The notes below the pieces were generated by a model. It had not been told where the DNA came from. It worked only from the letters and a program-made list of their open reading frames with translations, and did not search any database. This document shows, piece after piece, positions 27,451 through 64,000 of a stretch of 64,000 nt of DNA (its first letter is position 1; the number at the start of each line of letters is the position of its first letter). The stretch spans positions 192,001 to 256,000 of IMG/VR virus record IMGVR_UViG_3300012642_000011; one strand, 5' to 3'. This stretch comes from a virus. A program made the position numbers and the translations under genes.

Positions 27451-27831
27451 CGTAGGTTTTTATTTTTTTGAGGGGGCTGCGCTCGCGGTGGGGGAGGTTT
27501 TTTAGGGACACAGTTTGGGGAGAGGAAATAATTTCATGGGGAGAGTAATAATTCTGGTCATGGTAGTGTATGCTGGTGTGGTGTTTTATTTCTTAGGGTG
27601 TGCTGTCGCCGTGGTCAGGTTGGAGTGTGCTGTGGGTTTGTGTTGTGTCGGCGGGGTAGTGAATTCGTGAGTTGACTTTTATTGTTCTCTGTGTGAGCAT
27701 GTTCTCTGTGTGAGCGTGGGAGATATAATTCGGTTGTTGTTGCAGTGTAGTGTTTGTAATGTGGTGCGACCCGCTGTTCTCCCGTGTGGGGTACTGGGCG
27801 GGCCGCTTGTGATCGTGGGGTCAGGCGTCCA

Positions 27832-27933
27832 TGTCGTCCATCTGGTCGGCAACGTAGCCGGAGCTCTTCGTGAGGAGGAAGAGGAAGATGGCGAAGTAGA
27901 GGATGATGAAGATGATTTCCATGATGTTCTCCT
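27832..27933 (-). CDS. 34-aa hydrophobic peptide (MEIIFIILYFAIFLFLLTKSSGYVADQMDDMDA)
   Basis: SD plus ATG preceded by conserved leader (catgatgttctccttgtggagtgtggggg); below the ORF-track size cutoff, translated by hand. Confidence 0.35.
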
Positions 27934-28164
27934 TGTGGAGTGTGGGGGTTTGGTCTCTTCCCTTGCCCTGTTGATGGTTTAATCATAGCATGGGGGACGC
28001 TCCATGCGCAAGGTGGTGTGGGAATTAATTTGTCGTGAAGTGGCCCGCTGTTTTCTCGTGTGAGGTACTAGGACGGGCCGCTTGCTGCCGTGGGACGGAC
28101 ATTTGTGTGCTGCTGGTTGGGTGCAGCAGTGTGTTTCCTTGTGGTTGGTGGTGTTGCCTTTGGT

Positions 28165-28311
28165 GTCAGCCGAGGTTGTTCCAGTGGGTATCGGGGGTGT
28201 GTCGGGGCTGGGTCTTGTCGTATCGCACGGTCTGGGCCTTGGGGGTGGGGTTGAGGGCGAAGAAGGATGCGATCACGAGGGTGGCGATGACGATGAGCAG
28301 GGCGGTCATGG
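28165..28311 (-). CDS. about 48-aa membrane peptide (MTALLIVIATLVIASFFALNP...)
   Basis: SD aaggagaacacc-ATG; hand translated. Confidence 0.35.
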
Positions 28312-28578
28312 TGTTCTCCTTAGGTGTCGTTGTTGGTTTAATCGTATCATGTGGTTTGGGTGTTGTCTATGTGTGCTGGTGTTCGTGTGTGGTTTTATTT
28401 AGGGACACAGGTTTGCGTAGTGGTGGTTTTCGGTTTAATTGTTCATGTTGAGTGTGTGCAAGTGTCCTCTCCGTGCGCAAGTGTCTTCTCCATGCTACCA
28501 CACGCACGCTTGCATATGCAGGAACGCTTGCACACGCCTCCCTGTGCAAGCGTTGTGTGGAGTGTTCTTGTGGGTGTG

Positions 28579-28899
28579 TTAGCCCATGAGGTAGTTGCTG
28601 TATGCGTTGGAGCATCGTGGGGAGCATACGCTGTCGTTTCCGGCGTCTTCTACGGAGAAGGTGTCACCGCAGTTGAGGCATTTGGCCCAGTGTTCTCCGA
28701 GGATAAGGATGCGGAGGTTGATGGCTGCGATTTCTCTGTGTTCTGGGTAATCACTGTTGAGGTTTTCTAGGGTGCTGGTGATGTGTTCTCGTTTGGGGTC
28801 GTTGGGGTCGAGGTTGTTCACGTATTCATTGATGGCGTGGTCTGTGAGGTTGGGGTGGGAGAGGAGGATGTTTACTTTGAGGTTGTTGATGCTTGTCAT
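28579..28899 (-). CDS. 106-aa protein with C-terminal CxxC...CxxxC zinc-ribbon-like motif
   Basis: ORF with SD; CLNCGDTFSV...CSPRC. Confidence 0.45.
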   Translation of the reverse strand: MTSINNLKVNILLSHPNLTDHAINEYVNNLDPNDPKREHITSTLENLNSDYPEHREIAAINLRILILGEHWAKCLNCGDTFSVEDAGNDSVCSPRCSNAYSNYLMG

Positions 28900-29124
28900 T
28901 GTGTTCTTCTTTCTCTTTGTATTGATGTGATGCCGTTTTTTGTTGTGAACGTGGGTAGTGTTGTTGTTTTATCGATTTCTTCTAGTTTCTTTGTCCATTC
29001 TTGTATCTGTTGCTGGTGTTGGTTTTGGTTGGTGTGATGGTGTTCTCCCTGTTGGTGGTTTTGTTTATTGTGTCGTTTGTGTTTTCTTTTCATGTTTTAC
29101 CTAGGGGCTGTATGATTTGTGCTT

Positions 29125-29383
29125 TTAATATGCGTGTTTTATTGGGAGTGTTCCTTTTCGCATGAGTGTGGTGAAGGTCCAGATGCAGGCTAGTGTGGAT
29201 GCCAGCGGCCAGAGTGGGGCGATGATGGCGATGAGGGCACCGATTTTGCGCATGTGTAGTGAGCGGTTTGTGACGTAGTTGGTAGTGTTGCTTCCTACGC
29301 AACCAGCTACGATCCAGAGGGCTACGGTGACAATCGACCATACGGTGAGGATTGTGATGTATAGAGTGTCTGGGTTGTTCATG
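29125..29383 (-). CDS. small 2-TM membrane protein
   Basis: Start at MNNPDTLYITIL; hydrophobic helices. Confidence 0.4.
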
Positions 29384-29384
29384 G

Positions 29385-29846
29385 TTAGTTCTTCCTTACC
29401 TTCCATGTTCCGATGATGACTTTTTCTCGGGCGATGCATTTTCTGATTTCAGAGTCGGATGTCCATATTCCATACCAGTATCCACCTATACCGAGTACGG
29501 CTTTCTGGGTGCGCCATGTTTTTCCGCATACTACGGCTTCGATAAAGTTACGGTTATCTGCGGGGATGATGACTGTTTTTCGTGTCTGGAAGATGGTGTC
29601 AGGCTGTTTCTCGCGTCGGATTGTGAGCGTGATGCCGTCTCCTTCGCCGTAGGTGATCCATCTGCCGTCTTCGCTTCGGCACATACCATAAGCATCTCTG
29701 TGGTGGAAGATTCCTTCGCGGCGTTCGATGACGGTCATCCCGTTCACTTTTCTTTTCCACACCCATGTGAGGTGGTCTCCCAAGATGGCGTCGTTGGCTC
29801 GTGCGTTCTCGATGATCTGCATGTTCGTGTGATCTTGTGTAGTCAT
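29385..29846 (-). CDS. paralog family A member 1 (unknown function)
   Basis: Shares N-terminal M..Q.IENA...D.L.GDH.TW and C-terminal ITIRR..K...T..IIPA motifs with the 30000..30467 and 31186..31638 genes. Confidence 0.55.
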   Translation of the reverse strand: MTTQDHTNMQIIENARANDAILGDHLTWVWKRKVNGMTVIERREGIFHHRDAYGMCRSEDGRWITYGEGDGITLTIRREKQPDTIFQTRKTVIIPADNRNFIEAVVCGKTWRTQKAVLGIGGYWYGIWTSDSEIRKCIAREKVIIGTWKVRKN

Positions 29847-29847
29847 T

Positions 29848-29997
29848 TCGTTTCCTTGACGTCGATGTGGTATGCGGCCATGATGGCTGTGATGAATGCG
29901 CAGTAGGCGGAGATTGTGTATAACTCTTGCGCTCCTGTCTTCAGGCCGATGACGACGAGGGCGAGGAGAATGAAGGTGGCTGCGATGTATTTCATGG
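29848..29997 (-). CDS. about 49-aa membrane peptide (MKYIAATFILLALVVIGLKTG...)
   Basis: Hand-translated small ORF between the two family-A genes. Confidence 0.3.
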
Positions 29998-29999
29998 TT

Positions 30000-30467
30000 C
30001 TACTTTACATGTACCGTTGATGATGTTTTCTGGGGCGACCGAGGTGTGCAGTTTATAGGATATGTCCAATTTCTTATCTGATGTGAGGATAACTTTAAAC
30101 TCTCGCCATGCTGCTTGCCATTGTCCATTGTGGTCAAGGACGGCTTCACGTGCTCTGTACTTTTTCCTTCTACCACGGCTTGGATGCGTTCATGCCCGTC
30201 AGCGGGGATGATGGCTGTCATTGGTTTTGTGGGGAGGGTTGTTTGTAGGGTTCTGTGGATGGTGAGTTCGCTTTCGCCTGCTGTGATCCATGCACCTTCT
30301 TTGTTTTTCCAGTCGCCGTTTGCGTCTTGGTGGTAGGCGGTTCCTTCGCGTTGTTGTGTGACGGTGATCATGCCATCATGGCGGGTCCGTGTCCAGATGA
30401 GGTAGTCACCGGGGAGTACGTCTTTGCATTTGGCGTTCTCGATGGTCTGTATGTTATGATTGCTCAT
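30000..30467 (-). CDS. paralog family A member 2
   Basis: MSNHNIQTIENAKCKDVLPGDYLIWT... homologous to family A members 1 and 3. Confidence 0.55.
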   Translation of the reverse strand: MSNHNIQTIENAKCKDVLPGDYLIWTRTRHDGMITVTQQREGTAYHQDANGDWKNKEGAWITAGESELTIHRTLQTTLPTKPMTAIIPADGHERIQAVVEGKSTEHVKPSLTTMDNGKQHGESLKLSSHQIRNWTYPINCTPRSPQKTSSTVHVK

Positions 30468-30690
30468 TGTGCTCCTGATTATGGGAATATTTACACTACT
30501 GATCTATCCACTGTAGCATATGTGTGTCTCGTTTTCAACCCTATTGGGGATGTTTTCTTTAGGTTGCTGTGAAGTGTTCGTGACTTTGGGGTTAGGTTGC
30601 TGTGGGGACACAATGTTGGGTGTAATAATCTTGTGTTTTCGTCATGGTGTTTTATCTGTTCTGTGTACTTTGTCATCTGTGTGCTTTGTT

Positions 30691-30748
30691 CAATCACTAA
30701 CGGCCCGCTGTCCTCCCGTGTGGGGTTCTAGCGGGCCGTTAGTGATTG
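30691..30748. terminator. long hairpin (18-bp stem) with conserved loop TGTCCTCCCGTGTGGGGTTCTA (type-1 hairpin family)
   Basis: caatcactaacggcccgc[loop]gcgggccgttagtgattg; same loop recurs at about 27756, 28044, 32670, 33540, 34418, 35157. Confidence 0.6.
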
Positions 30749-30787
30749 CTTCTGATGTGCTGACAGGAGTGAGCAGCGTGGGGGCGT

Positions 30788-31191
30788 TCAGTCGTGCGTC
30801 TTGGGGCGTCGAATCGTGATGCCGGTGATTTCTCTCTTGCCATCGCCCCAGTAGTCATCCTTGAGCATGACAGTTCCCCACGTCACATGATCTCCGACTC
30901 GGATGTGCTTGCCGGTATCGTCGTGGATGATTTCCATGTTGTCGTTGATCTGTTGTGCCGTGTTGTTGGGGGTGGCTTTACGGTTCTGCAGGTCGTTGAA
31001 GAAGTACACTCCCCAGATGCAGAGGAAGGGGAGAATCATGAGGCAGATCATGAAGTAGACGGCAGCGGTTGCATCGGTCAGCACGGGGGTGATGTCTGCG
31101 ACCATCCATGCGAGCAGGTTGTTGAAGGGGTGAGAGGCGTGCGCGTAGTTGAGCGTTTCGATGAACGTCTCGATCAGCGTTTCAATCATGA
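30788..31191 (-). CDS. family A-related protein with N-terminal TM extension
   Basis: Start MIETLIETF after SD ggagagagcatc; C-terminal GDHVTWGTVM...ITGITIRRP aligns with family A. Confidence 0.45.
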
Positions 31192-31638
31192 TGCTCTCTC
31201 CTTCGTCTTCCATGTGTCTGGGGTGATGTAGCTGGCGTACATTTCATAGGTCGAGTGGTCGTTCTCGCCCCGCCAGACACCCACCCAGACACCTTCTGTT
31301 GCGTCGTAGGTGGCATGGCGCGTCGTGTAGGTCACCTCGTCCCACACGGCCTCGATAACTCCGTGGGCAGGGATGATCTGTGTGCCGTCCTCCGTGGGGA
31401 GGCTCTTGACGGGGCGGCGGATCGTGATGGCGCTGCCATTGCCGTCGCCACCCGCGATCCACATGCCGTCCTCGGCGCACCAGTCGTCGTCCTCGTTGCG
31501 GTGGTGGGCGATCCCCTCACGGATTTCGGTGCAGGTCACGCCGCGCGCCGCCCAGGTTTTTTTCCAGGTGATGTGGTCGCCGGGGAGCACGTCGTCAGGG
31601 GTCGCGTTCTCGATGGTCTGTACGTTCTGCTCGCTCAT
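31186..31638 (-). CDS. paralog family A member 3
   Basis: MSEQNVQTIENATPDDVLPGDHITWKKTW...ITIRRPVK. Confidence 0.55.
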   Translation of the reverse strand: MSEQNVQTIENATPDDVLPGDHITWKKTWAARGVTCTEIREGIAHHRNEDDDWCAEDGMWIAGGDGNGSAITIRRPVKSLPTEDGTQIIPAHGVIEAVWDEVTYTTRHATYDATEGVWVGVWRGENDHSTYEMYASYITPDTWKTKERAS

Positions 31639-31743
31639 TCTGTTCTCTCCTTCAGAAGAAATTGGTAGGGAGTGCTTTGCTCTGTGTTGTCCTCCCTGTT
31701 AACGTGATTATTTTACCAAGCGAGGGGACGCTCTGCTGTTTAC

Positions 31744-32496
31744 TCAATCGGTGGATCGAATTACAGCGTTGTTCTTCAGCCACGTTTCACCAGACACCAG
31801 CGCATCACCGAATACATCTGCTCGCTCGGATACCCACGCGTTATCACACACGTGTGCATTGCCGGACACATTTGCCATACCGAAAATCATCGCATTACCG
31901 GACACCAACGCATTTCCAGACACGCGTGCGTTACCAAATACCCATGCTGTGCCGATCACTCGTGCATTGCCGTCCACGCCTGCATTGCCAGACACGCATA
32001 CGTTGCCAGATACGTAGGCGTTATCAGTCAGCATGGCCTTACCAACCACCAGTACATAACCGGAAACTCGTGCGTTGCCAGTTACTCGCGCGTTGCCGGT
32101 CACCCACACGTCGTCAGTCACTCGCGCTTCGTACTCCACTGTCGAGTTGCCTTCTACGCGTGCGTTGCCGGACACTTCTGCGTTCTCGAAAACCTCTGCG
32201 TTACCGTACACCCACGCGTTGTCGGTTACTCGCGCGTTATCGTACACCTCCGCTTCACCGGACACTCGCGCGTTGTCGGTTACTCGTGCGTTACCGTAGA
32301 CTACTGCGTAGTCGAATACTCGTGCATCATCGGCTACCCAAGCGTTTCCTGAAAGGTTACCCAGATGTTCCACATATCCGCCGAGATCACCGGCCTTCAC
32401 GTCATGAGTAGGCAGGTCTCGTGTGGCTCGGATACGGTGGAGCGTGCGACCTTCATAGTGAATTGTTTCATCTGTTAATTCGAAGTGAGCGCTCAT
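31744..32496 (-). CDS. hexapeptide-repeat (left-handed beta-helix type) protein, about 29 consecutive [GD]-N-A-x-V-x repeats
   Basis: Strict 6-residue period GNARVT/DNARVS/GNAEVF... after about 60-aa N-terminal domain; SD aaggagag plus ATG; the opposite-strand R/H-rich ORF 31662..32411 is its shadow. Confidence 0.6.
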   Translation of the reverse strand: MSAHFELTDETIHYEGRTLHRIRATRDLPTHDVKAGDLGGYVEHLGNLSGNAWVADDARVFDYAVVYGNARVTDNARVSGEAEVYDNARVTDNAWVYGNAEVFENAEVSGNARVEGNSTVEYEARVTDDVWVTGNARVTGNARVSGYVLVVGKAMLTDNAYVSGNVCVSGNAGVDGNARVIGTAWVFGNARVSGNALVSGNAMIFGMANVSGNAHVCDNAWVSERADVFGDALVSGETWLKNNAVIRSTD

Positions 32497-32723
32497 GTTT
32501 TCTCTCCTTAAGTAAGGTTAACTCTGGTTTGTCATTCTCATTGGTGATCGTATATTACCACAAGAATACGACATAAACAAGACGTGTATAAAACTTATGG
32601 TGCGTATTTGCGCTTGTTATCGTTGTGGACTGTCGTTGTCGATAGGGACACAATCCAGTAATCCGTGAAAGAAGAATGCCCGCTATCCTCCCATGTGAAG
32701 GTCAAGCGGGCATCCGTAGTTCG

Positions 32724-32975
32724 TCAGGGCTGAAGAAGTTCATTCATGTAGTCGTGAGCATCCTTGGCGTTGTCGAACGTGGCGAGGGTCTCGCACGTCT
32801 GATCGTCCCAGATGCTCACGGTAGCGTTCTTATGCGCGAGGTAGAACAGGTTAGAACTCACGTAAATGTTTGCTTCAGTCTGGACATCTCCGAACATGAT
32901 GGATGCGCGAACCACCTCGGGCTTGCTAAGGGAAGTAGTCTCCATCTTGGTCAGTTCATTCAGGACGGTCTCCAT
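32724..32975 (-). CDS. hypothetical 83-aa protein
   Basis: Conserved leader catgatgatctctccttg upstream. Confidence 0.45.
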   Translation of the reverse strand: METVLNELTKMETTSLSKPEVVRASIMFGDVQTEANIYVSSNLFYLAHKNATVSIWDDQTCETLATFDNAKDAHDYMNELLQP

Positions 32976-33077
32976 GATGATCTCTCCTTGTGAATGGTAG
33001 GTGTTCGCCTAAGTTGCTTTTCTTATTGTTGGAATCAATCTATCACGGGGGACGTGACGCGCGCAACTCTTAGGTTT

Positions 33078-33371: not shown

Positions 33372-33615
33372 GATGTTCTCCTATGTTTGTACGGTGAGTA
33401 TCAAGGCAATCGTATCAGGCTATCAGCCTATTGTCTACATCATGTTTCGAGATCATTATGGCTATGTGGGGACACAGTAATAGGCTGCAGGATTGGACTT
33501 TTCCTATACCCGATTGTGTGATTGTTTTCGGATGCTGCGACACAATAGCCCGCCGTTCCATCGTGTGAGGTACTAGGCGGGCCATTGCTTATCTACTGTC
33601 TGCGATCAGCGCGGA

Positions 33616-52686: not shown

Positions 52687-52695
52687 GGGTCAGGA

Positions 52696-57715: not shown

Positions 57716-57774
57716 GCGGGCGGCGGCATGGAGCCTCCGAGCACGCGAGGCATCAGGGGTTTGCGGTGTAGAAA

Positions 57775-59120
57775 ACAGATGCTTAATTACATGCTTTTTG
57801 CTATACTATAATGTAGAAACGGGAAGAAGGTGAAAAATGATACTCACAGAGAAGCATGTGATTCGCAAAAATCACATGAACTTCAATGAGTGCGATCATC
57901 TCGCTTTCTTGAGCAAGAATCTTTACAATTCTACTCTTTTTGCCGTTCGCCAGCACTACTTCAGTAATGGTGAATACCTTAACTACAATAATGCAAATAA
58001 AATCTTCACCATAGAGGGACAAAGCGACTATGTTGCCTTGCCCAGAAAAGTCAGCAAACACACAATGATGCTGGTGGATCGTTCTTTCAAATCCTTTTTC
58101 AAACTCTTGGAGAAGAAAAGAAATGGAGAATATGACAAAACCGTAAGAATCCCAAAATACTTAGACAAAACAAAAGGTCGTCAAGTTGTTCATTATGAAA
58201 AAGGGGCATTGTCCTTCAAGAAGAAGGAGGGGTACCTCTATCTTTCACAGACTAACATATATTTGAAAACCAAGGTAACTTCGGATCAAATTCAATTTGC
58301 TAGAATCGTCCCTCGGGGTGAGCATTATGTGATTGAGGTGGGATATAGGGTTCCTCAGGTAGATAATCTTCACGATAATGGGCGATACCTGTCCCTTGAT
58401 CTTGGGGTGAATAATCTTGTCACAGCAGTGAGCAATGTGACAGCCCCGATACTCTTCAATGGGCGACCATTGAAGAGTATCAATCAGTTTTACAATAAGA
58501 GATTTGCATCCCTTCAGTCTAAACTCGGAGAGGAGGTGAAAAGCAGTAAGCAGATCAAGACTTTGCATCAGAGAAGATTGAACAAAATCAATGATTATCT
58601 CCACAAAGCCTCAAGAATGTTGGTGAATCACGCAGTTGAAAACTCTATCAATACTATAGTTATTGGATACAATAAAGAGTGGAAACAAGACATCAACATT
58701 GGGCGAAGAAACAATCAGAATTTTGCCTCTATTCCTTTTGCAAGGCTTATTGAGATGATTGAATACAAGGCTTCTCTTGTTGGTATCAACACCATCAGAC
58801 AGGAAGAGTCCTATACTTCCAAGTGTTCCTTTCTTGACGATGAGCAGGTGAGGAAAGCCAATTCCTATTCAGGAAGAAGGGTGAGTCGAGGTCTTTTCAA
58901 GACTGGGCAAGGACTTCGCGTTAATGCTGATGTGAATGGTGCCTTGAATATCTTAAGAAAAGCACTGAAAGTATCATGGAATGACCAGTTGTGGTCAGAC
59001 TGTGTAGCGGCGTGCAGTGTGCCGAAGCGGGTCAATATACCAGCTTGAAATGTTAATTCATGTTTATCATGTTTTCAACTAACTGTCCATCTTCTCGTTC
59101 ATCGTAAGTATTTTTTCTCC
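57775..59120 (+). mobile_element. second low-GC IS1341-like tnpB-only element (about 1.35 kb, with about 75-nt AT-rich tail after tnpB stop)
   Basis: AT-rich island; tail ...gtaagtattttttctccttgggaatag is the likely right end / omega-RNA region. Confidence 0.55.
57837..59048 (+). CDS. tnpB: TnpB-like RuvC-fold protein (zinc-finger Cys largely lost)
   Basis: RuvC-I LSLDLGVNNLVTAV, C-terminal YTSKCSFL...NADVNGALNILRK; only one Cys where CxxC...CxxC is expected. Confidence 0.75.
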   Translation: MILTEKHVIRKNHMNFNECDHLAFLSKNLYNSTLFAVRQHYFSNGEYLNYNNANKIFTIEGQSDYVALPRKVSKHTMMLVDRSFKSFFKLLEKKRNGEYDKTVRIPKYLDKTKGRQVVHYEKGALSFKKKEGYLYLSQTNIYLKTKVTSDQIQFARIVPRGEHYVIEVGYRVPQVDNLHDNGRYLSLDLGVNNLVTAVSNVTAPILFNGRPLKSINQFYNKRFASLQSKLGEEVKSSKQIKTLHQRRLNKINDYLHKASRMLVNHAVENSINTIVIGYNKEWKQDINIGRRNNQNFASIPFARLIEMIEYKASLVGINTIRQEESYTSKCSFLDDEQVRKANSYSGRRVSRGLFKTGQGLRVNADVNGALNILRKALKVSWNDQLWSDCVAACSVPKRVNIPA

Positions 59121-59152
59121 TTGGGAATAGTGGTTTCCGAGCGTGAAGCGGT

Positions 59153-59479
59153 TCAGAGGCTCGTGATCTGGTAAGTGTAAGACTTCAGGTCACCCTTGGG
59201 CTTCGTGGAGTAATCAACTTCCACAGCGACGATGCTCCCGCTCTTGTCAAGCACCGGACGCGCCAGTTCGAACAGGGAGTAGCGAGGGTCACTCTCTTCA
59301 GCGGCGCGCAGAGCGGCAGGCTGGTGCAGTTGGAACAGGCGAGTGTTGCGCTCATCCTGTGCGGTCTGCGCACGGGGTGTGCTCCGCTTCGGCTTCACCG
59401 TGGCGGTGACCTTGTTCTCGATGATTGCGCGGGCGGTGGGAGTCATCAGGGACAGGCTGTGCCGCGTGGAAGACTTCAT
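59153..59479 (-). CDS. hypothetical 108-aa protein
   Basis: SD aaggagagcatc. Confidence 0.45.
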   Translation of the reverse strand: MKSSTRHSLSLMTPTARAIIENKVTATVKPKRSTPRAQTAQDERNTRLFQLHQPAALRAAEESDPRYSLFELARPVLDKSGSIVAVEVDYSTKPKGDLKSYTYQITSL

Positions 59480-59511
59480 GATGCTCTCCTTAGGGGAATG
59501 ACTGTGTTGTT

Positions 59512-60039
59512 TCAGTCTTCGAAGCGGATAGCAGGAATGATCTTGAAACCATTGTAGCGGGTCTTTTCAAGATAGTCAAGAAGGTCGATTACCAAGTAGC
59601 CCCACGAGGTGTCAGAGGGGATCTTCCAGCCATCCTCGCCAGCATCAAGGACGCGCCGCACGTCAGCATTGAACCTGTGATCGTCTGCCTGCCTCTTGCG
59701 GATACGAGCAGTAGTGTTCTCCACGTAGGTGAGCACTTCCAGAGCCTCGCTCTTGAACGGTTCAGGAAGAGACTGGGCGCTCTCCATCGTGACGTTCTTG
59801 GCGATTTCAAGATCATCGTCATCGAGGTATTGGTTGGAGTTGATGATCTCATCGACCTCACGATCAGCACGAGTGTCGATGAAGTCGTCGCTGCGAAGGA
59901 AGTACTTTTCGCTTGTCATTTTCACCAACTCGGCGTGACAGAATCGAGCGAACTGATCAGGGGAGTTGATGATGTAGTGGTCTCGCTCACGGGTGTCTTC
60001 ACCTGCCAGCGTGACGATGATGGGGTAGTCAATGCTCAT
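59512..60039 (-). CDS. hypothetical acidic 175-aa protein
   Basis: SD aggagaacatc. Confidence 0.5.
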   Translation of the reverse strand: MSIDYPIIVTLAGEDTRERDHYIINSPDQFARFCHAELVKMTSEKYFLRSDDFIDTRADREVDEIINSNQYLDDDDLEIAKNVTMESAQSLPEPFKSEALEVLTYVENTTARIRKRQADDHRFNADVRRVLDAGEDGWKIPSDTSWGYLVIDLLDYLEKTRYNGFKIIPAIRFED

Positions 60040-60226
60040 GATGTTCTCCTAATGAATAATTGATGAGTCTTGTTCAAGTGCAATGCTATACCGTCATATG
60101 TGTTACGTCAAGCCTCATCCGCGAGCGATCAAGGAGTTCTCACATGGGGACACAACTTGAGCGCAAGCGCACCCCTTGAACAGCAAAAAGTGGGCAGCGC
60201 CTCCACTACCCACCCTTGCTCATGAG

Positions 60227-60520
60227 TCAGGCGCTCTTGACGTTCGTCTGCACCCACTCGATTGCGTCTTCGGGGCTGGCGAACGTTCCGAGGATAACAG
60301 GCTGTGACTTGCGCAGTCGGCGCTTGTGGTCGGAGTGCTTCAGGACCGTGACGTAGCCGCCCAGATGGATCATGTAGTCCACATCGTGACCATTGACATG
60401 CATGCTCATGTTGGTGAAGTCAGTCATGAGGACGGAGAGATCATTGAGCGGGTGGTGCTCGAAGTCAACGATCTTGTTCGCGGTCTCGGTCAGGTTCTCG
60501 GTGACATCTACGGTGTTCAT
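60227..60520 (-). CDS. hypothetical 97-aa protein
   Basis: SD aaggagagaac. Confidence 0.5.
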   Translation of the reverse strand: MNTVDVTENLTETANKIVDFEHHPLNDLSVLMTDFTNMSMHVNGHDVDYMIHLGGYVTVLKHSDHKRRLRKSQPVILGTFASPEDAIEWVQTNVKSA

Positions 60521-60712
60521 GTTCTCTCCTTAGAGTGTCTGCGCGGTGTTGCGCTCTGCAATGAACTCTACCCTACGCGGTGGATCATTGTCAAAGCGCA
60601 ACGCAGTGAATGCATATGGGGACACAATACTCGCGGCAGCGCCATGAGCGCAGCAGCACAACGCCCCGCCGTTCATCCTCGGGGGACTACTGGGCGGGGC
60701 GCTGGTGGGGTC

Positions 60713-61042
60713 TTAGCGGGCGAGCAGAGTCCGCACGGACTGGATCATGCGGGTCACGTGCTTGATGCTCTCCTGCGCGTCGTCCGACTCATCGTAGTGA
60801 CGCTCGGCGGTGAAGATGTTGCGATCACCCTGATAGGCGCGGGCATTCACGCGCATGCCGGTGGGGTGGTTCAGGAACACGCTCACATAGACGCGACCGG
60901 CGGGCTCATTGCTGTCCTTGTCGAACAGGTGCTCGAACTCATCGGACAGGTCGAAGTAGGGAGCGCTGAGCGTGTAGCCGAGAGTCTTGTGCTCGTGCAG
61001 GCGGGTGATGGTCTCGTGGATATTCTTGGTCGTCGGCTCCAT
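60713..61042 (-). CDS. hypothetical 109-aa protein
   Basis: Start MEPTTKN; module M upstream. Confidence 0.5.
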   Translation of the reverse strand: MEPTTKNIHETITRLHEHKTLGYTLSAPYFDLSDEFEHLFDKDSNEPAGRVYVSVFLNHPTGMRVNARAYQGDRNIFTAERHYDESDDAQESIKHVTRMIQSVRTLLAR

Positions 61043-61127
61043 GATGGTCTCCTTGGGGAGTTGTGGGGTTCGGCTCTTCCTCATCCCTTGATGAATCCCA
61101 CTTTACCAGACAGACGCTCCGCTGTCC
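61043..61127 (-). promoter_or_regulatory. conserved promoter-leader module (copy M): TGGACA-17-TAAAGT
   Basis: -10 at 61099-61104, -35 at 61122-61127. Confidence 0.6.
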
Positions 61128-61287
61128 AGCCGGAATGAGTAGGGCGAACAACTTTTTCCTCCCTATGCGATGAGGGGGTGGGTGTAGCGTGAGGGGACAC
61201 AGATTGTATGATCACCACATCGGCAACACACACACAACGCCCCGCCGTTCATCCTCTGGGGGACTACTGGGCGGAGCGTGCGGTGGA

Positions 61288-61539
61288 TCAGGCGTTGGTC
61301 TGGTAGCGACGCTCCCACTCGTCCATGATGGAGTTCGCCACGCGGTTGAGGGTGCACGCGTTGGTGTCCATGAGGATGACTCGGTAGCCCTTCTTGCTCC
61401 CCGTGACCGCACCGTAGCGGGTCAGGGTGCGGGCACAGACATGGTTGATGATCTTGGTCACATCCATCTCGTCTGTGCCCTTGAACTGCGGCAGGGTCAG
61501 GGTCATCTCGCCCACGCGGTAGATCTTCATCGTCGTCAT
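61288..61539 (-). CDS. hypothetical 83-aa protein sharing N-terminal MTTMKIYRVGEMT with the 50694..51248 gene
   Basis: See duplicated 5' module. Confidence 0.45.
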   Translation of the reverse strand: MTTMKIYRVGEMTLTLPQFKGTDEMDVTKIINHVCARTLTRYGAVTGSKKGYRVILMDTNACTLNRVANSIMDEWERRYQTNA

Positions 61540-61704
61540 GGTGCCAACCTATAGGATGAGAGGGAATAATGTAAGTCTGATTGCCTGCATATTTTTGTCT
61601 TATATTGTGTCCCCTTGAAGCGAGTCATCATGTGCGCGCGTGCCAGTTGAATGCAAGAGGGCGGGTTTAGCCATGGTGCGCTCAACCCGCCCTCACGCAG
61701 TAGG

Positions 61705-62337
61705 TCACACCTCGAACGACTCCCACGTGATCGAGACCGGACGGCGCACGGCGCGCCACATGTGCTCACTACCCTCATCCTTGGAGTCAGCCATCCAGCC
61801 CATCACCTGTGGCAGAGACATGTCAGAGCGGTGAAGGTCTTCAGAGTTCAGGTGATTCGGCACAGAGTCTGCACGGGCGATGCCATACTGCCAGATCCGA
61901 CCGTTCAGGCGGTTGGTGCGAATCGTCTCCAAAGCGCGCACGTTGATGTCCTCATCGAAGTCAAGCGCCACGCGAGTGGGGAAGATTTCAGGACGATCTG
62001 CACCGTAGAAGATGATAGCTTCGTTGTGAAGGTTGTAGTCACCATCCTCAAGCAGAAGTACACCCTCACCATAGTGGATGATCGCCTTCATGGTGTCAGA
62101 GTCATCATCGAAGATCGAGTGATAACGGTCATCCTTGCTCACGCGAGCCTCGAACACCACGTCCTGACGCAGAGCGTCATGATCCTCCTTGTAGGAGGTC
62201 TCGAACTTCACGCCATGAGCGGAGAGAACGTCGTAGATGCCCTTGGCGTTCTGGTCGATGCAGCCGATCATCTTGGCGAAGTCGGGCACGTGAGCCTTCG
62301 GGATGGTGATGCGGTAGAGGGGGTGGATCTTAGTCAT
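61705..62337 (-). CDS. hypothetical 210-aa protein
   Basis: SD aaggagagagcacc. Confidence 0.5.
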   Translation of the reverse strand: MTKIHPLYRITIPKAHVPDFAKMIGCIDQNAKGIYDVLSAHGVKFETSYKEDHDALRQDVVFEARVSKDDRYHSIFDDDSDTMKAIIHYGEGVLLLEDGDYNLHNEAIIFYGADRPEIFPTRVALDFDEDINVRALETIRTNRLNGRIWQYGIARADSVPNHLNSEDLHRSDMSLPQVMGWMADSKDEGSEHMWRAVRRPVSITWESFEV

Positions 62338-62525
62338 GGTGCTCTCTCCTTGAGTAGCGGAATTCTTACTGATGTAGAGACTACCATCATCTTCTCCTCA
62401 ATGCAAGCCATGCGATCAATCAGCAAAATGAATGCCGGTCGGACTAAAGCGATAGTCCGACCGGCTTAGTCAGAAGCATTGCGCGCTCAAGCACCTATGG
62501 TGCTAACAAGAAGCATTCTTGACTG

Positions 62526-62876
62526 ATGTGTAGAAGCATACATGCTGATCAGGCAGAGCGCAACCGTTGTCTTCGTGAGGTGGGTCACGGTGTCCGACTG
62601 GCGAGGAACGCGGGTGAGGAGAATGACACGCTCATGACCGCGTTGGAGCGCTTCGGCTTCGAGGTGGATGCCGGTTACGAGAACCCCGATGACGTGGTGA
62701 TCACGAACTACAACGACAAGTATGGCGATGAGATCGTCGCCGCTCTGGAGGCACTTGCCCCGTTCGCTGTCGAGGGCACGGGGATGCAGTGGCAGGGCGA
62801 GGACAATTCCTTCTGGAAGATGGAGGTCAAGGGTGGCAAACTGGATGAGAAGAACGGGGATCTCACCTACTCCTGA
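62526..62876 (+). CDS. hypothetical protein (start uncertain; possibly Met at 62632)
   Basis: ORF only. Confidence 0.3.
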   Translation: MCRSIHADQAERNRCLREVGHGVRLARNAGEENDTLMTALERFGFEVDAGYENPDDVVITNYNDKYGDEIVAALEALAPFAVEGTGMQWQGEDNSFWKMEVKGGKLDEKNGDLTYS

Positions 62877-62949
62877 CCCCAGCACCTTGACGAGAATGCC
62901 CCCATGAGGTAGCATGGAGGCAACAAGCACTCACAGCAGACAGGAGAAC

Positions 62950-63225
62950 ATGATGAACAAGGTGGATGAGGTCAAGACCCACGATGACGCTGGTTTCCTC
63001 ATGGGTTACGAGTTCTACGAGGACAACGGGAAGTTCCGCTGGATCTTCACCGAGCACGGTCAGCCGGACGACGTGAGCAGTGCCCGCTTCGACAGTCTGA
63101 TCGATGCTCTGCGCGGGGCTTCGGACAACGCTGAGGACTCCTTCGGCTCTTACGAGGAAGCCAAGCGACTCACGCGCGTGATGCGCGGCAAGGCGACCCG
63201 ACTGGAGAAGAAGAACCAGTCCTGA
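62950..63225 (+). CDS. hypothetical 91-aa protein
   Basis: SD caggagaacATG; followed by terminator gccccgctggtgacaatgccagcgggcgtttt (63232-63266). Confidence 0.45.
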   Translation: MMNKVDEVKTHDDAGFLMGYEFYEDNGKFRWIFTEHGQPDDVSSARFDSLIDALRGASDNAEDSFGSYEEAKRLTRVMRGKATRLEKKNQS

Positions 63226-63452
63226 CGATGAGCGCCCCGCTGGTGACAATGCCAGCGGGCGTTTTCTATATTCACATTTCGTGTCCCCACTCGTCCCACG
63301 GCGCACCCGCAACAGCAATGAGCCCAGATGACAACATGAGAAGGGGATCAGTGGAGAGGTCGCCACAAGGGGACACAATATGACTATTTTTGAGAACACC
63401 ACCGCCCCGCCTGAACTCCGAGAGGGAGGATAAGCGGGGCGGTTGGTATAGA

Positions 63453-63950
63453 TCAGGCCGTGGCGAGCGCCGGAGCGTGGGCGGAGTGGTAGGACTTCTT
63501 CACCGTCTCCGAGACGCGGCCACGGGTGCCCACGGTGAGGCCCTGTGCGATAGCCCACTCGCGGATGCGCGAGTTGGCAGAGAGGATCACCTTCACCGGA
63601 GCGGCCTCGCCGTGAGCCTCACGGTAAGCCTTGACCACGGCGTGCGGGACGCGACCACGCTGACCCGCCTTCAGCAGCCCCTCGGCCTCGGCCCACGCGC
63701 GGATGACGGGGGCGGACTCACCGGCGAGCAGGCCCTTGTCCTCGTTGTAGGCCGCGCCGACAACCTCCCCCTTGTCGAGCAGACGCTCCGCCTTGGACTC
63801 GCGGAAGTTCTTGTCCTTCAGGGCGGCGGCGGTCTTGTCGGTCAGGGCCACGGTGACGCGCTTGCCGTTCACGCGGATGGTGTGCTCGGTCGCGCCGAAG
63901 TGGCCGGTCAGGGCGTCGCGGACGGTGGAGGTGGTCTGGGTCTTCGTCAT
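63453..63950 (-). CDS. lsr2: Lsr2-like nucleoid-associated protein with two tandem C-terminal DNA-binding domains
   Basis: Two copies of the Lsr2 DNA-binding signature: IRAWAEAEGLLKAGQRGRVPHAVVKAYREAHG and IREWAIAQGLTVGTRGRVSETVKKSYHSAHA (cf. IREWA..NG..VS.RGRIP..V..AY). Confidence 0.65.
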   Translation of the reverse strand: MTKTQTTSTVRDALTGHFGATEHTIRVNGKRVTVALTDKTAAALKDKNFRESKAERLLDKGEVVGAAYNEDKGLLAGESAPVIRAWAEAEGLLKAGQRGRVPHAVVKAYREAHGEAAPVKVILSANSRIREWAIAQGLTVGTRGRVSETVKKSYHSAHAPALATA

Positions 63951-64000
63951 GATGTTCTCCTAAGAGTTGTGGAGCCGTGGTGACTCCGTTATGTGGGCTT

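What the first reader, a model, noticed from the sequence alone, without database searches (positions are those of the whole stretch)
27500..64000. Hypervariable array of more than 50 self-contained small-gene cassettes resembling an accessory or anti-defence island
The right 36 kb contains almost only 50-210 aa ORFs with no recognisable housekeeping function. Each has its own promoter and terminator. Many are highly acidic (for example 42425..42844 with about 30% D/E, and 41684..42175, 43454..43906, 48129..48509, 56843..57232). There are zinc-ribbon mini-proteins, small membrane peptides, a GNAT, a lipoprotein, and paralog families in tandem (family A x3-4 at 29.4-31.6 kb; family B at 44843..45226 and 53148..53522). 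Leaders and even the first codons are exchanged between unrelated genes (MSQTIK at 44489 and 53522; MTTMKIYRVGEMT at 51248 and 61539). A gene fragment is duplicated at 49493-49640, and two foreign IS1341 tnpB elements have landed in the array. This combination of modular shuffling, acidic DNA-mimic-like proteins and paralog expansion is what is seen in plasmid leading-region or phage anti-defence islands. The function of essentially every gene is unknown.
Basis: inference. Interest (0 to 1): 0.7.

Follow-up and report, generated by a model that had tools for sequence, protein, structure and literature searches.

The report
Promoter-to-terminator small-gene cassette array
Next to the replication origin of a roughly 332-kb plasmid-like element lies a very regular array of at least 46 kb holding about 80 tiny genes of unknown function, each with its own promoter, hairpin and a strand-specific boundary motif, which most likely helps the element establish itself in a new host, though no known anti-defence gene was found.

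Summary
Window 27.8-64 kb holds 62 small genes (median 112 aa). They have GC3 of 0.6-0.9, ATG starts and AAGGAG ribosome sites, and 51 lie on the minus strand. The array runs at least 10 kb past the window.

It sits 1.3 kb from an origin with iterons and DnaA boxes, on a 332-kb plasmid-like contig. The backbone is 40-44% GC; the array is 51-63%.

Sixteen genes share an 88-nt promoter-plus-leader module. About 35 are followed by GC-rich hairpins without a T tail. A new feature is the 9-mer GGGGACACA. It occurs 34 times (0.55 expected), always between genes, and 41 of 44 copies lie on one strand whatever the gene orientation.

Related metagenomic arrays share this layout but carry different neighbouring cassettes. 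Within this lineage, copies from at least eight samples are 99.9-100% identical, so it is not hypervariable.

No known anti-defence, defence or DNA-mimic family was detected. The flagship acidic protein has a confident model with no known fold. No single-strand promoters or oriT were found.

Best reading (about 0.45): a co-regulated battery of establishment or host-takeover genes that evolves by cassette exchange. This is a new variant of a known kind.

The parts
27500..64000 (.). The cassette array within the window. It holds 62 small ORFs (51 on the minus strand, 11 on the plus strand) plus two TnpB elements. GC is 0.51-0.63. It continues at least 10 kb beyond the window end.
   Evidence: composition, periodicity, gene list. 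(independent gene calls). (continuation in L013 1-10000 with the same modules and motif).
52451..52537 (-). Reference copy of the 88-nt promoter + 5'UTR module. In order: TTGACC, spacer with GGAGCGTCC, TGnTAAGAT extended -10, about 55-nt leader, AAGGAGA, ATG of gene 52085-52453.
   Evidence: nhmmer E=9e-25. Alignments. Other copies with E<1e-5, minus strand: 56210-56296, 40775-40860, 45773-45860, 44487-44573, 52945-53031, 53520-53607, 46228-46316, 57227-57310, 55112-55197, 34962-35045, 27920-28011, 61040-61128, 45225-45313, 33823-33916. Plus strand: 43384-43456. None in 1-27 kb and none in relatives L021/L022.
52475..52497 (-). Conserved hairpin in the 5' leader (GGUCAAGGGAACAGCCCGAGACC), followed by a small CUCU/GGAG stem that overlaps the Shine-Dalgarno sequence.
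   Evidence: RNAalifold on 20 copies: 10 pairs, 3 of them with compensatory double changes in 3 copies. No Rfam family matches.
30604..63377 (+). Span of the polar boundary motif aGGGGACACArwAT. There are 34 exact 9-mers. Plus strand: 30604, 33468, 35668, 36687, 39702, 40337, 41541, 42239, 42964, 43298, 43983, 44622, 45358, 45927, 46947, 47083, 48597, 49351, 51350, 51999, 52607, 53053, 54075, 54623, 54818, 56342, 56751, 60146, 60618, 61193, 63369. Minus strand: 50647, 51315, 61606.
   Evidence: 34 found against 0.55 +/- 0.63 expected. (33 lie between called genes and one inside a doubtful ORF; orientation independent of gene strand). (consensus). (10 more copies, same orientation, in the next 10 kb; it is the most frequent 9-mer of the array; absent from the left arm and from L021/L022). 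(41/44 on one strand, p=1.6e-9; present in 34/47 spacers that contain a gene 3' end against 2/7 divergent spacers).
30699..30743 (-). Example of the conserved GC-rich hairpin without a T tail, downstream of gene 30788-31189 (family D7, 8 copies).
   Evidence: D7, and D15 at 51401-51440, 60662-60701, 61238-61277. (about 35/62 genes have a hairpin of -17 kcal/mol or stronger within about 70 nt of the stop, mostly without a U tract).
29385..31638 (-). Paralog family A: 29385-29846, 30000-30467, 31186-31638. A partial relative lies at 30788-31189. Small membrane ORFs are interleaved.
   Evidence: blastp 36-45% identity. Alignment. AF2 model with only three sequences in the alignment: pLDDT 62.6, all-beta N-domain, not used for a fold search. 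dN/dS 0.50.
44843..45226 (-). Family B copy 1. Its paralog is at 53148-53522.
   Evidence: 68% aa identity. Cassette-wide alignment from hairpin to promoter. dN/dS 0.27. No relatives outside its own 50% cluster.
53148..53522 (-). Family B copy 2. It shares the MSQTIK start and the leader with the unrelated gene 44109-44489.
42425..42844 (+). Acidic 139-aa protein (22% D/E, pI 4.05). It belongs to a large phage family (phrog_1915) with the invariant motif HD.WLTRNRHGAGFWDRGLG.
   Evidence: 1029 homologs. (pLDDT 95.3). (no PDB fold match). (only uncharacterised phage proteins). (this cassette sits among different neighbours in L034).
41017..43906 (+). Block of five plus-strand cassettes in which the boundary motif nevertheless stays on the plus strand.
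31744..32496 (-). 250-aa beta-solenoid repeat protein (YdcK-type repeats; phrog_7964/5070). More copies lie beyond the window.
34472..34885 (-). Lipoprotein with an LTGC lipobox (Pfam Phage_VG64, phrog_478).
55202..55615 (-). GNAT acetyltransferase with a long 5'UTR that contains a sub-threshold abiF-RNA-like hairpin (55755-55791).
56012..56212 (-). 66-aa zinc-ribbon protein (Pfam Phage_gp86, phrog_3207).
63453..63950 (-). 165-aa protein with two Lsr2-type DNA-binding domains. A second Lsr2-domain gene lies beyond the window.
37786..39246 (+). TnpB gene 1 (486 aa, Cas12f1-like TNB domain), in a low-GC segment.
57770..59083 (+). TnpB element 2 (1314 bp; tnpB at 57837-59048). It is inserted between gene 57404-57715 and its promoter/leader.
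   Evidence: OrfB_IS605 + TNB. (empty site in related contig L068)..
49498..49594 (+). Orphan fragment copied from inside gene 47220-47798 (47417-47513).
   Evidence: D17, 90% identity.
51211..51326 (-). Leader plus first 13 codons (MTTMKIYRVGEMT), duplicated at 61502-61617.
   Evidence: D14, 86% identity..
24541..27500 (.). Context: an ORF-free origin region. DnaA boxes at 26127-26135, 26148-26156 and 26170-26178. Five GGGTGTGCGCA iterons between 26427 and 26779. Extreme strand skew that switches sign here.
   Evidence: D16; the iteron is conserved in relative L022.
22489..24540 (-). Context: 683-aa Rep-like protein of the Replication-relaxation family with a winged helix.
   Evidence: 9 of 12 family members hit PF13814.

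Best explanation
The right arm is one co-regulated battery of small 'entry / establishment' (host-takeover, probably counter-defence) genes. It belongs to a giant plasmid-like replicon of about 332 kb and starts 1.3 kb from the replicon's iteron/DnaA-box origin.

Each unit is an insulated transcription unit with these parts, in order:
- A host sigma-A/sigma-70-type promoter (TTGACN, 17-18 nt, often TGnTAnnnT). In at least 16 units it carries a near-palindromic GGAGCGTCC in the spacer.
- A conserved leader of about 55 nt with a 5' hairpin.
- A strong AAGGAGAG ribosome site.
- One small ORF, occasionally 2-4.
- A GC-rich hairpin.
- The polar motif aGGGGACACArwAT.

Proposed mechanism. On arrival in a naive cell the host RNA polymerase fires all units at once. 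The GC3-rich coding and uniform leaders give fast, high translation. An element-encoded DNA-binding protein later shuts the regulon down, through the spacer operator and/or the boundary motif acting as a stoperator-like insulator. The products act on host systems. Recognisable ones are Lsr2-type nucleoid binders, a GNAT, a KptA/Tpt1 RNA 2'-phosphotransferase, a lipoprotein and beta-solenoid proteins. The rest are orphans. The array evolves by cassette duplication, replacement and IS insertion, with breakpoints in the conserved boundary and leader sequences.

Shown here: the genes are coding; the promoter and leader are conserved; the hairpins exist; the motif statistics; the mosaicism; the genomic context.

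Inferred: co-regulation, timing of expression, the identity of the repressor, and the anti-host function.
For: - Real genes under purifying but relaxed selection: periodicity and RBS; dN/dS 0.27-0.67.
- Shared regulatory layout: 16 module copies in the window and at least 9 more beyond it. GGAGCGTCC occurs 15 times against 0.37 expected, 10 of them in promoter spacers. The leader hairpin shows compensatory changes. Promoter-like sites are three times the shuffle expectation, 17 of 20 on the minus strand.
- Insulation: hairpins after about 35/62 genes, and one polar motif per boundary.
- Context: the array adjoins a Rep (Replic_Relax) gene, iterons conserved in a relative, DnaA boxes, and a T2SSE/T2SSF/TcpE/AAA_10/FtsK-like transfer cluster. 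Relatives keep the order 'Rep, ORF-free origin, small genes'.
- One relative has Gad2 near the origin.
- 82% of genes are on one strand. The array is GC-rich against its backbone, as reported for leading regions (PMC13478746; orientation bias in PMC11541004).
- Cassette exchange: L034 shares only 42361-42973 and has different flanks. L067 shares one cassette of five. L068 has the empty site of the TnpB element.
- Orphan-rich content: 9 of 62 have PHROG families; 5 of 10 surveyed have no relatives outside their own cluster.
- Known precedents for such regulons: p576 Reg576 (PMC6294495), IncN CUP/ArdK (PMC6289460), the SPO1 host-takeover module (PMC6873191).
Against: - No known anti-defence, anti-restriction, anti-CRISPR or SOS-inhibitor family was detected in any of the 62 proteins.
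- No relaxase or oriT was identified in the roughly 95 kb that could be inspected. The adjacent origin looks like oriV.
- The promoters do not form Frpo-like single-strand structures.
- No repressor candidate was identified.
- Most genes are head-on to a fork leaving the adjacent origin, which is unusual for highly expressed genes.
- The boundary motif does not flip with gene orientation, unlike L5-type stoperators (PMC9283540).
- Relatives L021/L022 have small-gene arms of ordinary GC (0.40), opposite orientation and no shared genes or motifs. The special layout is therefore lineage-specific.
- Host and expression data are lacking.
Confidence: 0.45

Rival explanations
1. Carrier-state cargo. 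The cassettes are 'moron-like' genes expressed constitutively from strong host-type promoters while the element is resident. They would benefit the host or exclude competitors (superinfection exclusion, defence, surface or nucleoid modulation) rather than act at entry.
For: - Ordinary double-strand sigma-A-type promoters.
- A lipoprotein, membrane peptides, Lsr2-type proteins and a GNAT are typical of prophage-expressed accessory genes.
- The array is perfectly stable across at least 8 samples.
Against: - No PADLOC defence family was found.
- A shared operator-like element in promoter spacers and a boundary motif argue for switchable rather than constitutive expression.
- About 80 strong constitutive promoters, mostly head-on to replication, would be costly.
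Confidence: 0.2
2. Foreign block. The array is the early or accessory arm of a different, high-GC actinobacterial phage or plasmid that became joined to a low-GC megaplasmid. It keeps its own regulatory layout and is not functionally integrated with the backbone.
For: - A 15-20 point GC jump, and GC3 0.6-0.9 against 0.37-0.50.
- The few recognisable families are actinophage-type: Lsr2-like, Phage_VG64, Phage_gp86, with homologs in Microbacterium, Mycobacterium and Gordonia phages.
- Hairpins without a T tail and extended -10 promoters are typical of Actinobacteria (established knowledge).
- The module and motif are absent from the backbone and from relatives L021/L022.
Against: - No integrase, structural or replication genes of a second element appear in at least 46 kb.
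- ORFs are intact, with dN/dS below 1.
- The junction is spanned identically by independent assemblies from several samples.
- The strand skew passes smoothly from the origin into the first 3-4 kb of the array.
- This reading explains origin, not function, and is compatible with the best explanation.
Confidence: 0.15
3. Integron-like cassette platform. GGGGACACA is the core of a site-specific (possibly single-strand) recombination site. An unidentified recombinase would insert, excise and shuffle promoter-ORF-terminator cassettes there, which would explain the uniform site orientation whatever the ORF orientation.
For: - One motif per boundary, 41/44 co-oriented, independent of gene strand.
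- Homology between the window and L034 ends exactly at the 3' edge of the motif.
- Cassette replacement in L067 has its breakpoint about 30 nt from the motif.
- Some copies extend to a GACAC-N5-GTGTC palindrome.
Against: - No integrase or recombinase was found in the window or in 10 kb on either side.
- There are no attC-like imperfect palindromes with paired core sites.
- The conserved part is only about 10-15 nt.
- The other L034 breakpoint lies in a promoter, not at a motif.
- Paralogous cassettes do not share motif-delimited ends.
Confidence: 0.12
4. Classical conjugative leading region. The region would be transcribed from the entering single strand (Frpo/ssi type), with the plus strand as the T-strand and oriT inside 24.5-27.5 kb.
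For: - The geometry fits. Minus-strand genes would be templated by a plus strand entering 5' first from about 26 kb (inference).
- Strand bias of 82%.
- The first 4 kb of the plus strand is poor in C and rich in G+T.
- A transfer-like gene cluster lies on the other side.
Against: - Folding the template strand of 10 promoter regions shows no consistent hairpin that makes the -35/-10 elements double-stranded.
- No relaxase, SSB, PsiB or ArdA was found.
- The skew is symmetric around an iteron/DnaA-box oriV.
- The FtsK-like and Tcp-type genes would also allow double-strand or non-canonical transfer.
Confidence: 0.08

Closest known systems
Repressor-controlled establishment-gene regulons of conjugative plasmids: p576 Reg576 in Bacillus (PMC6294495) and the IncN pKM101 CUP/ArdK regulon (Delver & Belogurov 1997, as cited in PMC6289460)
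   Same: Several unrelated small genes near the transfer/replication region each carry a copy of the same conserved upstream promoter/operator element. The logic is transient de-repression on entry.
   Different: Here there are tens of units (at least 25 module copies, about 80 genes) rather than 4-9. No repressor and no ardA/ardB/ardC gene was identified. There is an additional polar boundary motif and a conserved leader hairpin. The GC shift against the backbone is very large.
Plasmid leading-region anti-defence islands (PMC11541004), which are GC-rich and codon-adapted (PMC13478746)
   Same: Clusters of small, mostly uncharacterised genes with one dominant orientation. The cluster is GC-richer than the rest of the plasmid and lies beside the transfer functions.
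   Different: No oriT or relaxase, no known anti-defence genes and no Frpo-like single-strand promoters. The promoters are ordinary double-strand ones.
Stoperators of Cluster A mycobacteriophages (L5 gp71; PMC9283540)
   Same: A short asymmetric site, exactly conserved, in more than 20 copies, lying in short intergenic spaces of an actinobacterial-type mobile element.
   Different: The orientation of GGGGACACA does not follow the direction of transcription: it stays on one strand in the plus-strand gene block. No gp71-like repressor was found. The site lies beyond terminator hairpins.
Phage SPO1 host-takeover module (26 genes in 12.4 kb; PMC6873191) and similar early-gene clusters
   Same: Small genes, many transcription units with strong promoters and strong ribosome sites, and products that target host processes. 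Some of the SPO1 products are acidic DNA mimics (PMC8208478).
   Different: This array is four times longer, sits on a plasmid-like replicon with no phage structural genes seen, shares no proteins with SPO1, and has boundary motifs.
Integron cassette arrays (sedentary chromosomal integrons)
   Same: A long array of small orphan ORFs, a recombination-site-like element of uniform orientation at every boundary, and cassette-level presence/absence between relatives.
   Different: No IntI, attI or attC. Cassettes carry their own promoters and terminators. The ORFs point both ways.

Membership tests
Plasmid leading-region anti-defence island | Lies immediately downstream of oriT on the first-transferred side | tested here: inconclusive
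   No relaxase or oriT was recognised in the window or in 10 kb on either side. The adjacent non-coding region carries iterons and DnaA boxes, so it looks like oriV. The rest of the 332-kb contig could not be read.
Plasmid leading-region anti-defence island | Genes encoded uniformly on the T-strand | tested here: inconclusive
   51 of 62 genes are on one strand, but the T-strand is unknown.
Plasmid leading-region anti-defence island | Contains known anti-defence, SSB, PsiB or methyltransferase genes | tested here: not met
   Pfam at E<=0.5, PHROGs, PADLOC and PDB sequence searches of all 62 proteins found none. In the control the concatenated query recovered the GNAT only weakly (E=0.0056) and not the Lsr2 domains, so PDB sensitivity was limited.
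Plasmid leading-region anti-defence island | Frpo/ssi-type single-strand promoters | tested here: not met
   DNA folding of the template strand of 10 promoter regions shows no conserved hairpin pairing the -35/-10 elements; z-scores run from -3.3 to +1.2.
Plasmid leading-region anti-defence island | GC-rich and codon-adapted relative to the rest of the plasmid | tested here: met
   Array GC 0.51-0.63 and GC3 0.6-0.9, against backbone GC 0.40-0.44 and GC3 0.37-0.50. Adaptation to the host could not be tested because the host is unknown.
DNA-mimic anti-restriction proteins (ArdA / Ocr type) | Sequence or fold similarity to ArdA or Ocr, with an elongated, negatively charged, DNA-like surface | tested here: not met
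Repressor-controlled establishment regulon (Reg576 / ArdK-CUP type) | Several promoters share a conserved operator-bearing upstream element | tested here: met
   16 module copies in the window and at least 9 beyond it. GGAGCGTCC lies in the promoter spacers.
Repressor-controlled establishment regulon (Reg576 / ArdK-CUP type) | A cognate repressor encoded in or near the regulon that binds the operator | not testable with these tools
   No HTH or RHH repressor was recognised among the 62 ORFs. Binding cannot be tested in silico.
Cluster A stoperator system | An asymmetric site of about 13 bp in more than 20 intergenic copies | tested here: met
   34 + 10 copies, all intergenic bar one inside a doubtful ORF, with an asymmetric consensus of about 10-15 nt.
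Cluster A stoperator system | Site orientation follows the direction of transcription | tested here: not met
   The motif stays on the plus strand in the plus-strand gene block 41-44 kb and in convergent spacers.
Integron | IntI tyrosine recombinase with attI and Pc at one end | tested here: not met
   None at the origin-proximal end or anywhere in the window or the 10 kb on either side. The far end of the array was not reached.
Integron | attC imperfect palindromes with R''/R' cores at each cassette 3' end, and promoterless cassettes | tested here: not met
   The boundary hairpins are diverse terminator-like stems that go with the gene, not with the motif. The cassettes have their own promoters.
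IS200/IS605-family TnpB elements (the two 'IS1341' insertions) | TnpB with OrfB_IS605 and/or Cas12f-like TNB domains, and a discrete insertion with an empty site in a relative | tested here: met
   (domains). (empty site for element 2 in L068). The nearest TnpB relatives are only 57% identical, in Lachnospiraceae MAGs.

The most novel reading that the evidence does not exclude
The array is a new kind of gene-cassette system. It would be a library of about 80 or more independently transcribed, GC3-rich small effector genes on a giant AT-rich replicon. Every cassette would be delimited by a strand-specific 10-15-nt site (aGGGGACACArwAT). That site would be either the core of an unknown, possibly single-strand and replication-oriented, cassette-exchange mechanism, or a polar protein roadblock. 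The orphan proteins would be a largely unexplored arsenal of anti-defence or host-takeover factors for high-GC Gram-positive hosts.
Probability: 0.2. Interest if true: 0.9.

Novelty: new variant of a known kind. Interest (0 to 1): 0.72.

Why it matters
- If the regulon reading is right, this one locus supplies about 60-80 compact candidate inhibitors of host systems. Each comes with a native promoter, leader and terminator. Most have no relatives outside their own lineage, and the gene pool is actinobacterial-type, where few anti-defence proteins are known.
- The shared promoter/leader, and the boundary motif that keeps one strand whatever the gene direction, are directly testable handles. They could be used to find the regulator or recombinase and to recognise similar arrays elsewhere.
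- The locus is also a striking case of two codon-usage regimes on one replicon. It may therefore help the emerging idea that entry regions of plasmids are tuned for rapid translation.
- The surrounding element is itself an undescribed type of giant extrachromosomal element. It is about 332 kb, carries its own Pol III, clamp loader, GyrA, RadA-like protein and Tcp/T4P-like transfer genes, and has an origin with extreme, locally decaying strand skew.

Tried and rejected
Hypotheses rejected:
- Halophile-type acidity. The acidity is moderate and there is no archaeal signal. DnaA boxes and strong SD sites point to bacteria.
- 'Inocle' giant elements. Their GC is 24-32%, which does not match.
- Known phage. 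Megablast of both halves against 50,697 phage records found nothing. IMG/VR holds no relative of the T2SSE ATPase and no array with the leader sequence.
- Assembly chimera at the GC jump. The junction is spanned identically by independent assemblies from several samples.
- Frpo-like single-strand promoters.
- DNA mimicry for 42425-42844.
- Known defence systems.
- Known RNA families for the leader. Only a sub-threshold abiF hit elsewhere in the array.

Inconclusive or unproductive:
- Host assignment through TnpB. The best relatives are only 57% identical, in Lachnospiraceae MAGs.
- A concatenated query to the search for homologous proteins returned nothing, not even the proteins themselves.
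The far end of the array was therefore not reached.
- The afdb50 library was unavailable.
- The motif pattern was too degenerate for a collection scan.
- The family A model was too poor (pLDDT 62.6) to justify a fold search.
- The skin-metagenome paper I wanted for sample context is not held.

Weak leads, not tested:
- The resemblance of GGGGACACA-RWAT-G to SP6/K11-type single-subunit RNA polymerase promoters is recalled from memory only. No such polymerase was seen in the accessible 95 kb.
- A Chi-, KOPS- or TRS-like role fits the polarity, but not the strictly intergenic, one-per-boundary placement.

Full report
WHERE THE WINDOW COMES FROM. The window is 100% identical to the reverse strand of a 332,269-bp metagenomic contig, ENA ERZ27289831 k141_11150, at contig position = 187744 - window position. 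The same sequence, 99.9-100% identical, occurs on contigs from at least eight other samples and four assembly pipelines. One backbone fragment from another sample is 99.2% identical (L033). Nothing similar is in the INPHARED phage collection. IMG/VR holds no relative of the element's T2SSE ATPase.

THE ELEMENT AROUND THE ARRAY. The left 24.5 kb and the 10 kb beyond it have GC 0.40-0.44 and GC3 0.37-0.50. They encode:
- a split Pol III alpha and a clamp loader;
- a PD-(D/E)XK nuclease, a GyrA-like protein and a RadA/Sms-like protein;
- T2SSF proteins and T2SSE ATPases, one of them with an intein;
- TcpE, an AAA_10 (VirB4-like) ATPase, an FtsK-like protein and a ParA/CpaE-like ATPase.

The 683-aa protein at 22489-24540 belongs to a family in which 9 of 12 members hit Pfam Replication-relaxation and carry a winged helix. 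Its homologs, at 41-49% identity, sit on contigs of 345-347 kb.

Between this gene and the array lie 3 kb without ORFs. They contain three DnaA boxes (26127-26178) and five GGGTGTGCGCA iterons (26427-26779). The same iteron recurs beside the Rep gene of relative L022, so this is an oriV. Strand composition is extreme here. The plus strand has about 6% G at 24.5-26 kb and 50% G at 27.0-27.5 kb. The skew switches sign at about 26.2 kb and decays over 6-8 kb on both sides. No phage structural genes were seen in the roughly 95 kb I could inspect. I therefore call the element plasmid-like. A jumbo phage or a phage-plasmid is not excluded.

CHECK OF THE OBSERVATION. From 27.8 to 64 kb there are 62 plausible ORFs of 33-250 aa (median 112). 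The chosen frames have GC3 0.6-0.9 and GC2 0.3-0.45. Nearly all start with ATG, 5-8 nt after AAGGAG(A/G). Independent gene calls on the public contigs give the same genes. Fifty-one are on the minus strand. Coding density is only 58-63% and the median spacer is 218 nt.

- Family A has three members at 36-45% identity and family B has two at 68%.
- The starts MSQTIK and MTTMKIYRVGEMT are shared.
- The fragment 49498-49594 is copied from 47417-47513 at 90% identity.
- There is a GNAT, a lipoprotein, a zinc-ribbon protein, membrane peptides and two TnpB genes of lower GC.

Corrections:
- The most acidic proteins have 20-24% D/E, not 30%. Median pI is 4.98 against 5.8 in the backbone.
- About half to two thirds of the genes, not all, have a recognisable promoter and hairpin of their own. 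Nine spacers are under 40 nt.
- Within this lineage the array is invariant, not hypervariable.

The array does not end at 64000. The next 10 kb have the same GC, 17 more small genes, further Lsr2-domain and beta-solenoid genes and a KptA/Tpt1-type gene. Its far end was not reached.

A SHARED PROMOTER AND LEADER. Repeat analysis and an HMM built from ten copies find an 88-nt module in front of 16 genes in the window. Fifteen are on the minus strand, one on the plus strand, and all lie between 27.9 and 61.1 kb. At least nine more lie in the next 10 kb. There are none in the left arm or in relatives L021/L022.

The module reads, in order:
- TTGACN, then N4-5, then GGAGCGTCC, then N2-3;
- a (T)GnTAnnnT extended -10;
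- a leader, (N6)TTCATCAGGTCRAGGGAACANCCCAAGACCANNACTCTCAAGGAGAG, then N3-5 and ATG.

GGAGCGTCC occurs 15 times against 0.37 expected, ten of them in promoter spacers. The leader folds into a hairpin. Three of its pairs show compensatory double changes in the three most divergent copies. A small stem overlaps the ribosome site. No Rfam family matches it.

Looser variants of the promoter, and the same AAGGAGA-N-ATG region, precede many other genes. Consensus promoter-like sites are three times more frequent than in shuffles, and 17 of 20 are on the minus strand.

HAIRPINS AND A POLAR BOUNDARY MOTIF. About 35 of 62 genes are followed within 70 nt by a GC-rich hairpin of -17 to -38 kcal/mol. Some hairpin families have conserved loops (D7, D15). 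Most lack a U tract, which is why the T-tail scan finds no excess.

Just outside these hairpins lies the most frequent 9-mer of the array, GGGGACACA:
- It occurs 34 times exactly in the window against 0.55 expected. All copies lie between 30.6 and 63.4 kb, and all are intergenic except one inside a doubtful ORF.
- Thirty-one are on the plus strand. The ten further copies in the next 10 kb have the same orientation, giving 41 of 44 (p = 1.6e-9).
- The consensus is aGGGGACACA-R-W-A-T-k-n-g, with unconserved flanks.
- Allowing one mismatch, 34 of 47 spacers that contain a gene 3' end carry it, against 2 of 7 divergent spacers.
- It lies 65-90 nt beyond the stop codon of minus-strand genes and 40-120 nt beyond that of plus-strand genes.
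- It does not flip in the plus-strand block 41-44 kb or in convergent spacers.

It therefore marks unit boundaries in a replicon-fixed orientation rather than a gene-fixed one.

RELATED ARRAYS AND CASSETTE EXCHANGE. Homolog searches turned up short contigs from other samples with the same layout (GC 0.56-0.62, same leader, same motif in the same relative position).
- L035 is 97.8% identical to 42166-43239 and has the same neighbours.
- L034 is 87% identical only over 42361-42973, that is promoter, ORF, hairpin and motif. Its flanks are unrelated and its neighbouring genes are different. The right breakpoint falls exactly at the 3' edge of GGGGACACA.
- L067 shares one cassette (81% identity to 56795-57357) and then has four cassettes absent from the window.
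- L068 keeps the upstream neighbour and shows the empty site of the second TnpB element. That delimits the element to 57770-59083. It has separated gene 57404-57715 from its promoter and leader.

dN/dS between diverged copies and between paralogs is 0.27-0.67, so the genes are coding and constrained but evolve fast.

By contrast, two distant relatives of the element keep the order 'transfer genes, T2SSE, Rep, ORF-free skewed origin, small genes'. Their Rep proteins are 44% (L021) and 42% (L022) identical to this one. Their small-gene arms have GC 0.40, point away from Rep and share no proteins, modules or motifs with this array. One of them carries a Gad2 (anti-Gabija) gene about 2 kb from Rep.

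WHAT THE PROTEINS ARE. Only 9 of 62 match a PHROG family:
- a beta-solenoid protein;
- a VG64-type lipoprotein;
- the acidic 42425-42844 (phrog_1915);
- 41684-42175 and 45437-45775;
- a gp86-type zinc ribbon;
- 62634-62876;
- the GNAT;
- the Lsr2-like protein.

Pfam adds nothing at E<=0.5. PADLOC finds no defence protein. PDB sequence searches find nothing; in the control the concatenated query recovered the GNAT, though only weakly.

tblastn of 19 proteins against phages gives hits for two only, mainly in Microbacterium, Mycobacterium and Gordonia phages. In a 1.84-billion-protein representative library, five of ten module-driven ORFs have no relative outside their own 50% cluster, four have small families and one has a large family.

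HOW IT MOST LIKELY WORKS. Four features point to a single regulon of insulated transcription units read by the host RNA polymerase: the uniform promoter with an operator-like spacer, the uniform leader and ribosome site, the hairpins, and the boundary sites. Three further features parallel known systems: the position beside Rep/oriV and the transfer genes, the dominant strand, and the GC-rich coding.
- In establishment regulons of conjugative plasmids, repeated operator-bearing promoters are de-repressed on entry (p576 Reg576, PMC6294495; IncN CUP/ArdK, PMC6289460).
- Leading regions are GC-rich, codon-adapted and strand-biased (PMC13478746, PMC11541004).
- In host-takeover modules, small early genes have strong promoters and ribosome sites (SPO1, PMC6873191).

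I therefore favour, at about 0.45, an entry/establishment battery whose members act on host systems.

This is an inference. No known anti-defence gene is present. The promoters are ordinary double-strand promoters. No oriT, relaxase or repressor was found. Neither the host nor the expression pattern is known.

The boundary motif remains unexplained:
- It resembles stoperators in number, asymmetry and placement, but not in its orientation rule (PMC9283540).
- It resembles an integron's co-oriented recombination sites, but there is no integrase or attC structure.
- A polar signal for a translocase or a replication fork would fit the strand bias, but not the strict one-per-boundary placement.

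RIVALS. These partly overlap with the best explanation:
- constitutive carrier-state cargo (0.2);
- a foreign high-GC phage or plasmid arm joined to a low-GC megaplasmid (0.15; this concerns origin rather than function);
- an integron-like cassette platform (0.12);
- a classical single-strand-transcribed leading region (0.08).

VERDICT. The anti-defence interpretation is plausible by architecture and context, but every direct homology or structure test available here came back negative or uninformative. The locus is a new variant of the known class of accessory or early gene islands of mobile elements. Two features have no described counterpart that I could find: the replicon-oriented boundary motif, and the 15-20 point GC jump within one replicon.

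Noticed in passing
window 24541-27500 (also L021 about 5950-9900, L022 about 7250-10000): A 3-kb ORF-free origin region with extreme strand asymmetry. The plus strand has about 6% G at 24.5-26 kb and about 50% G at 27.0-27.5 kb. GC and AT skews switch sign at about 26.2 kb and decay over 6-8 kb on both sides. It holds three DnaA boxes and five GGGTGTGCGCA iterons, and the iteron is conserved in relative L022. The G-rich non-template strands on both sides suggest R-loop-prone or strand-displacement initiation.
   Followed up: partly
window 11899-14625 (+): The 908-aa T2SSE-type secretion ATPase contains a homing-endonuclease (intein) insertion at about residues 532-596.
   Followed up: no
L032 1-10000 (left of the window) and window 1-24540: The element carries its own replication and repair set (split Pol III alpha, clamp loader, GyrA-like, RadA-like, PD-(D/E)XK nuclease, NERD). 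It also carries a Tcp/T4P-like transfer cluster (T2SSE x2, T2SSF x2, TcpE, AAA_10, FtsK-like, ParA-like). Relatives are 345-347 kb. This looks like an undescribed family of giant plasmid-like elements, and it is not the Inocle family (GC 24-32%).
   Followed up: partly
L022 14293-15906: A relative of the element carries a 537-aa gene hitting Pfam Gad2 (anti-Gabija) between the T2SSE and ParA-like genes, about 2 kb from Rep. L021 has a NAD-dependent DNA ligase at the equivalent place.
   Followed up: no
window 57770-59083; L068 112-114: The second TnpB element is a 1314-bp insertion with an empty site in related contig L068. It separates gene 57404-57715 from its promoter and leader (remnant at 59084-59128). 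Its closest TnpB relatives are only 57% identical, in Lachnospiraceae MAGs.
   Followed up: partly
window 55755-55791 (-): A match to the Rfam abiF RNA motif just below threshold (36.3 bits against a gathering score of 37; E=0.004). It lies inside the unusually long (about 190 nt) 5'UTR of the GNAT gene 55202-55615.
   Followed up: no
window 42425-42844 (+): A large phage protein family (phrog_1915, more than 1000 homologs across phages of several phyla). It has an invariant HD.WLTRNRHGAGFWDRGLG motif and a confident predicted fold with no solved relative. Against the 97.8%-identical copy L035 all four coding differences are non-synonymous.
   Followed up: yes
window 44680-44760: An 80-nt AT-rich insert lies between the boundary motif and the terminator hairpin of the family B cassette. 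It is absent from the paralogous cassette at 53053-53148.
   Followed up: no
window 24000-24489 (-): The N-terminal part of the Rep-like protein is built from acidic 76-nt (about 25-aa) repeats. This region is the part not conserved in homologs, which cover only 44-70% of the query.
   Followed up: no
window 27500-31000: The first 3-4 kb of the array combine the array's layout (module at 27920-28011, D7 hairpins) with the strong origin-proximal skew (plus strand rich in G+T). Genes here have lower GC3 (0.35-0.6) than further in, and the exact boundary motif is rare.
   Followed up: no
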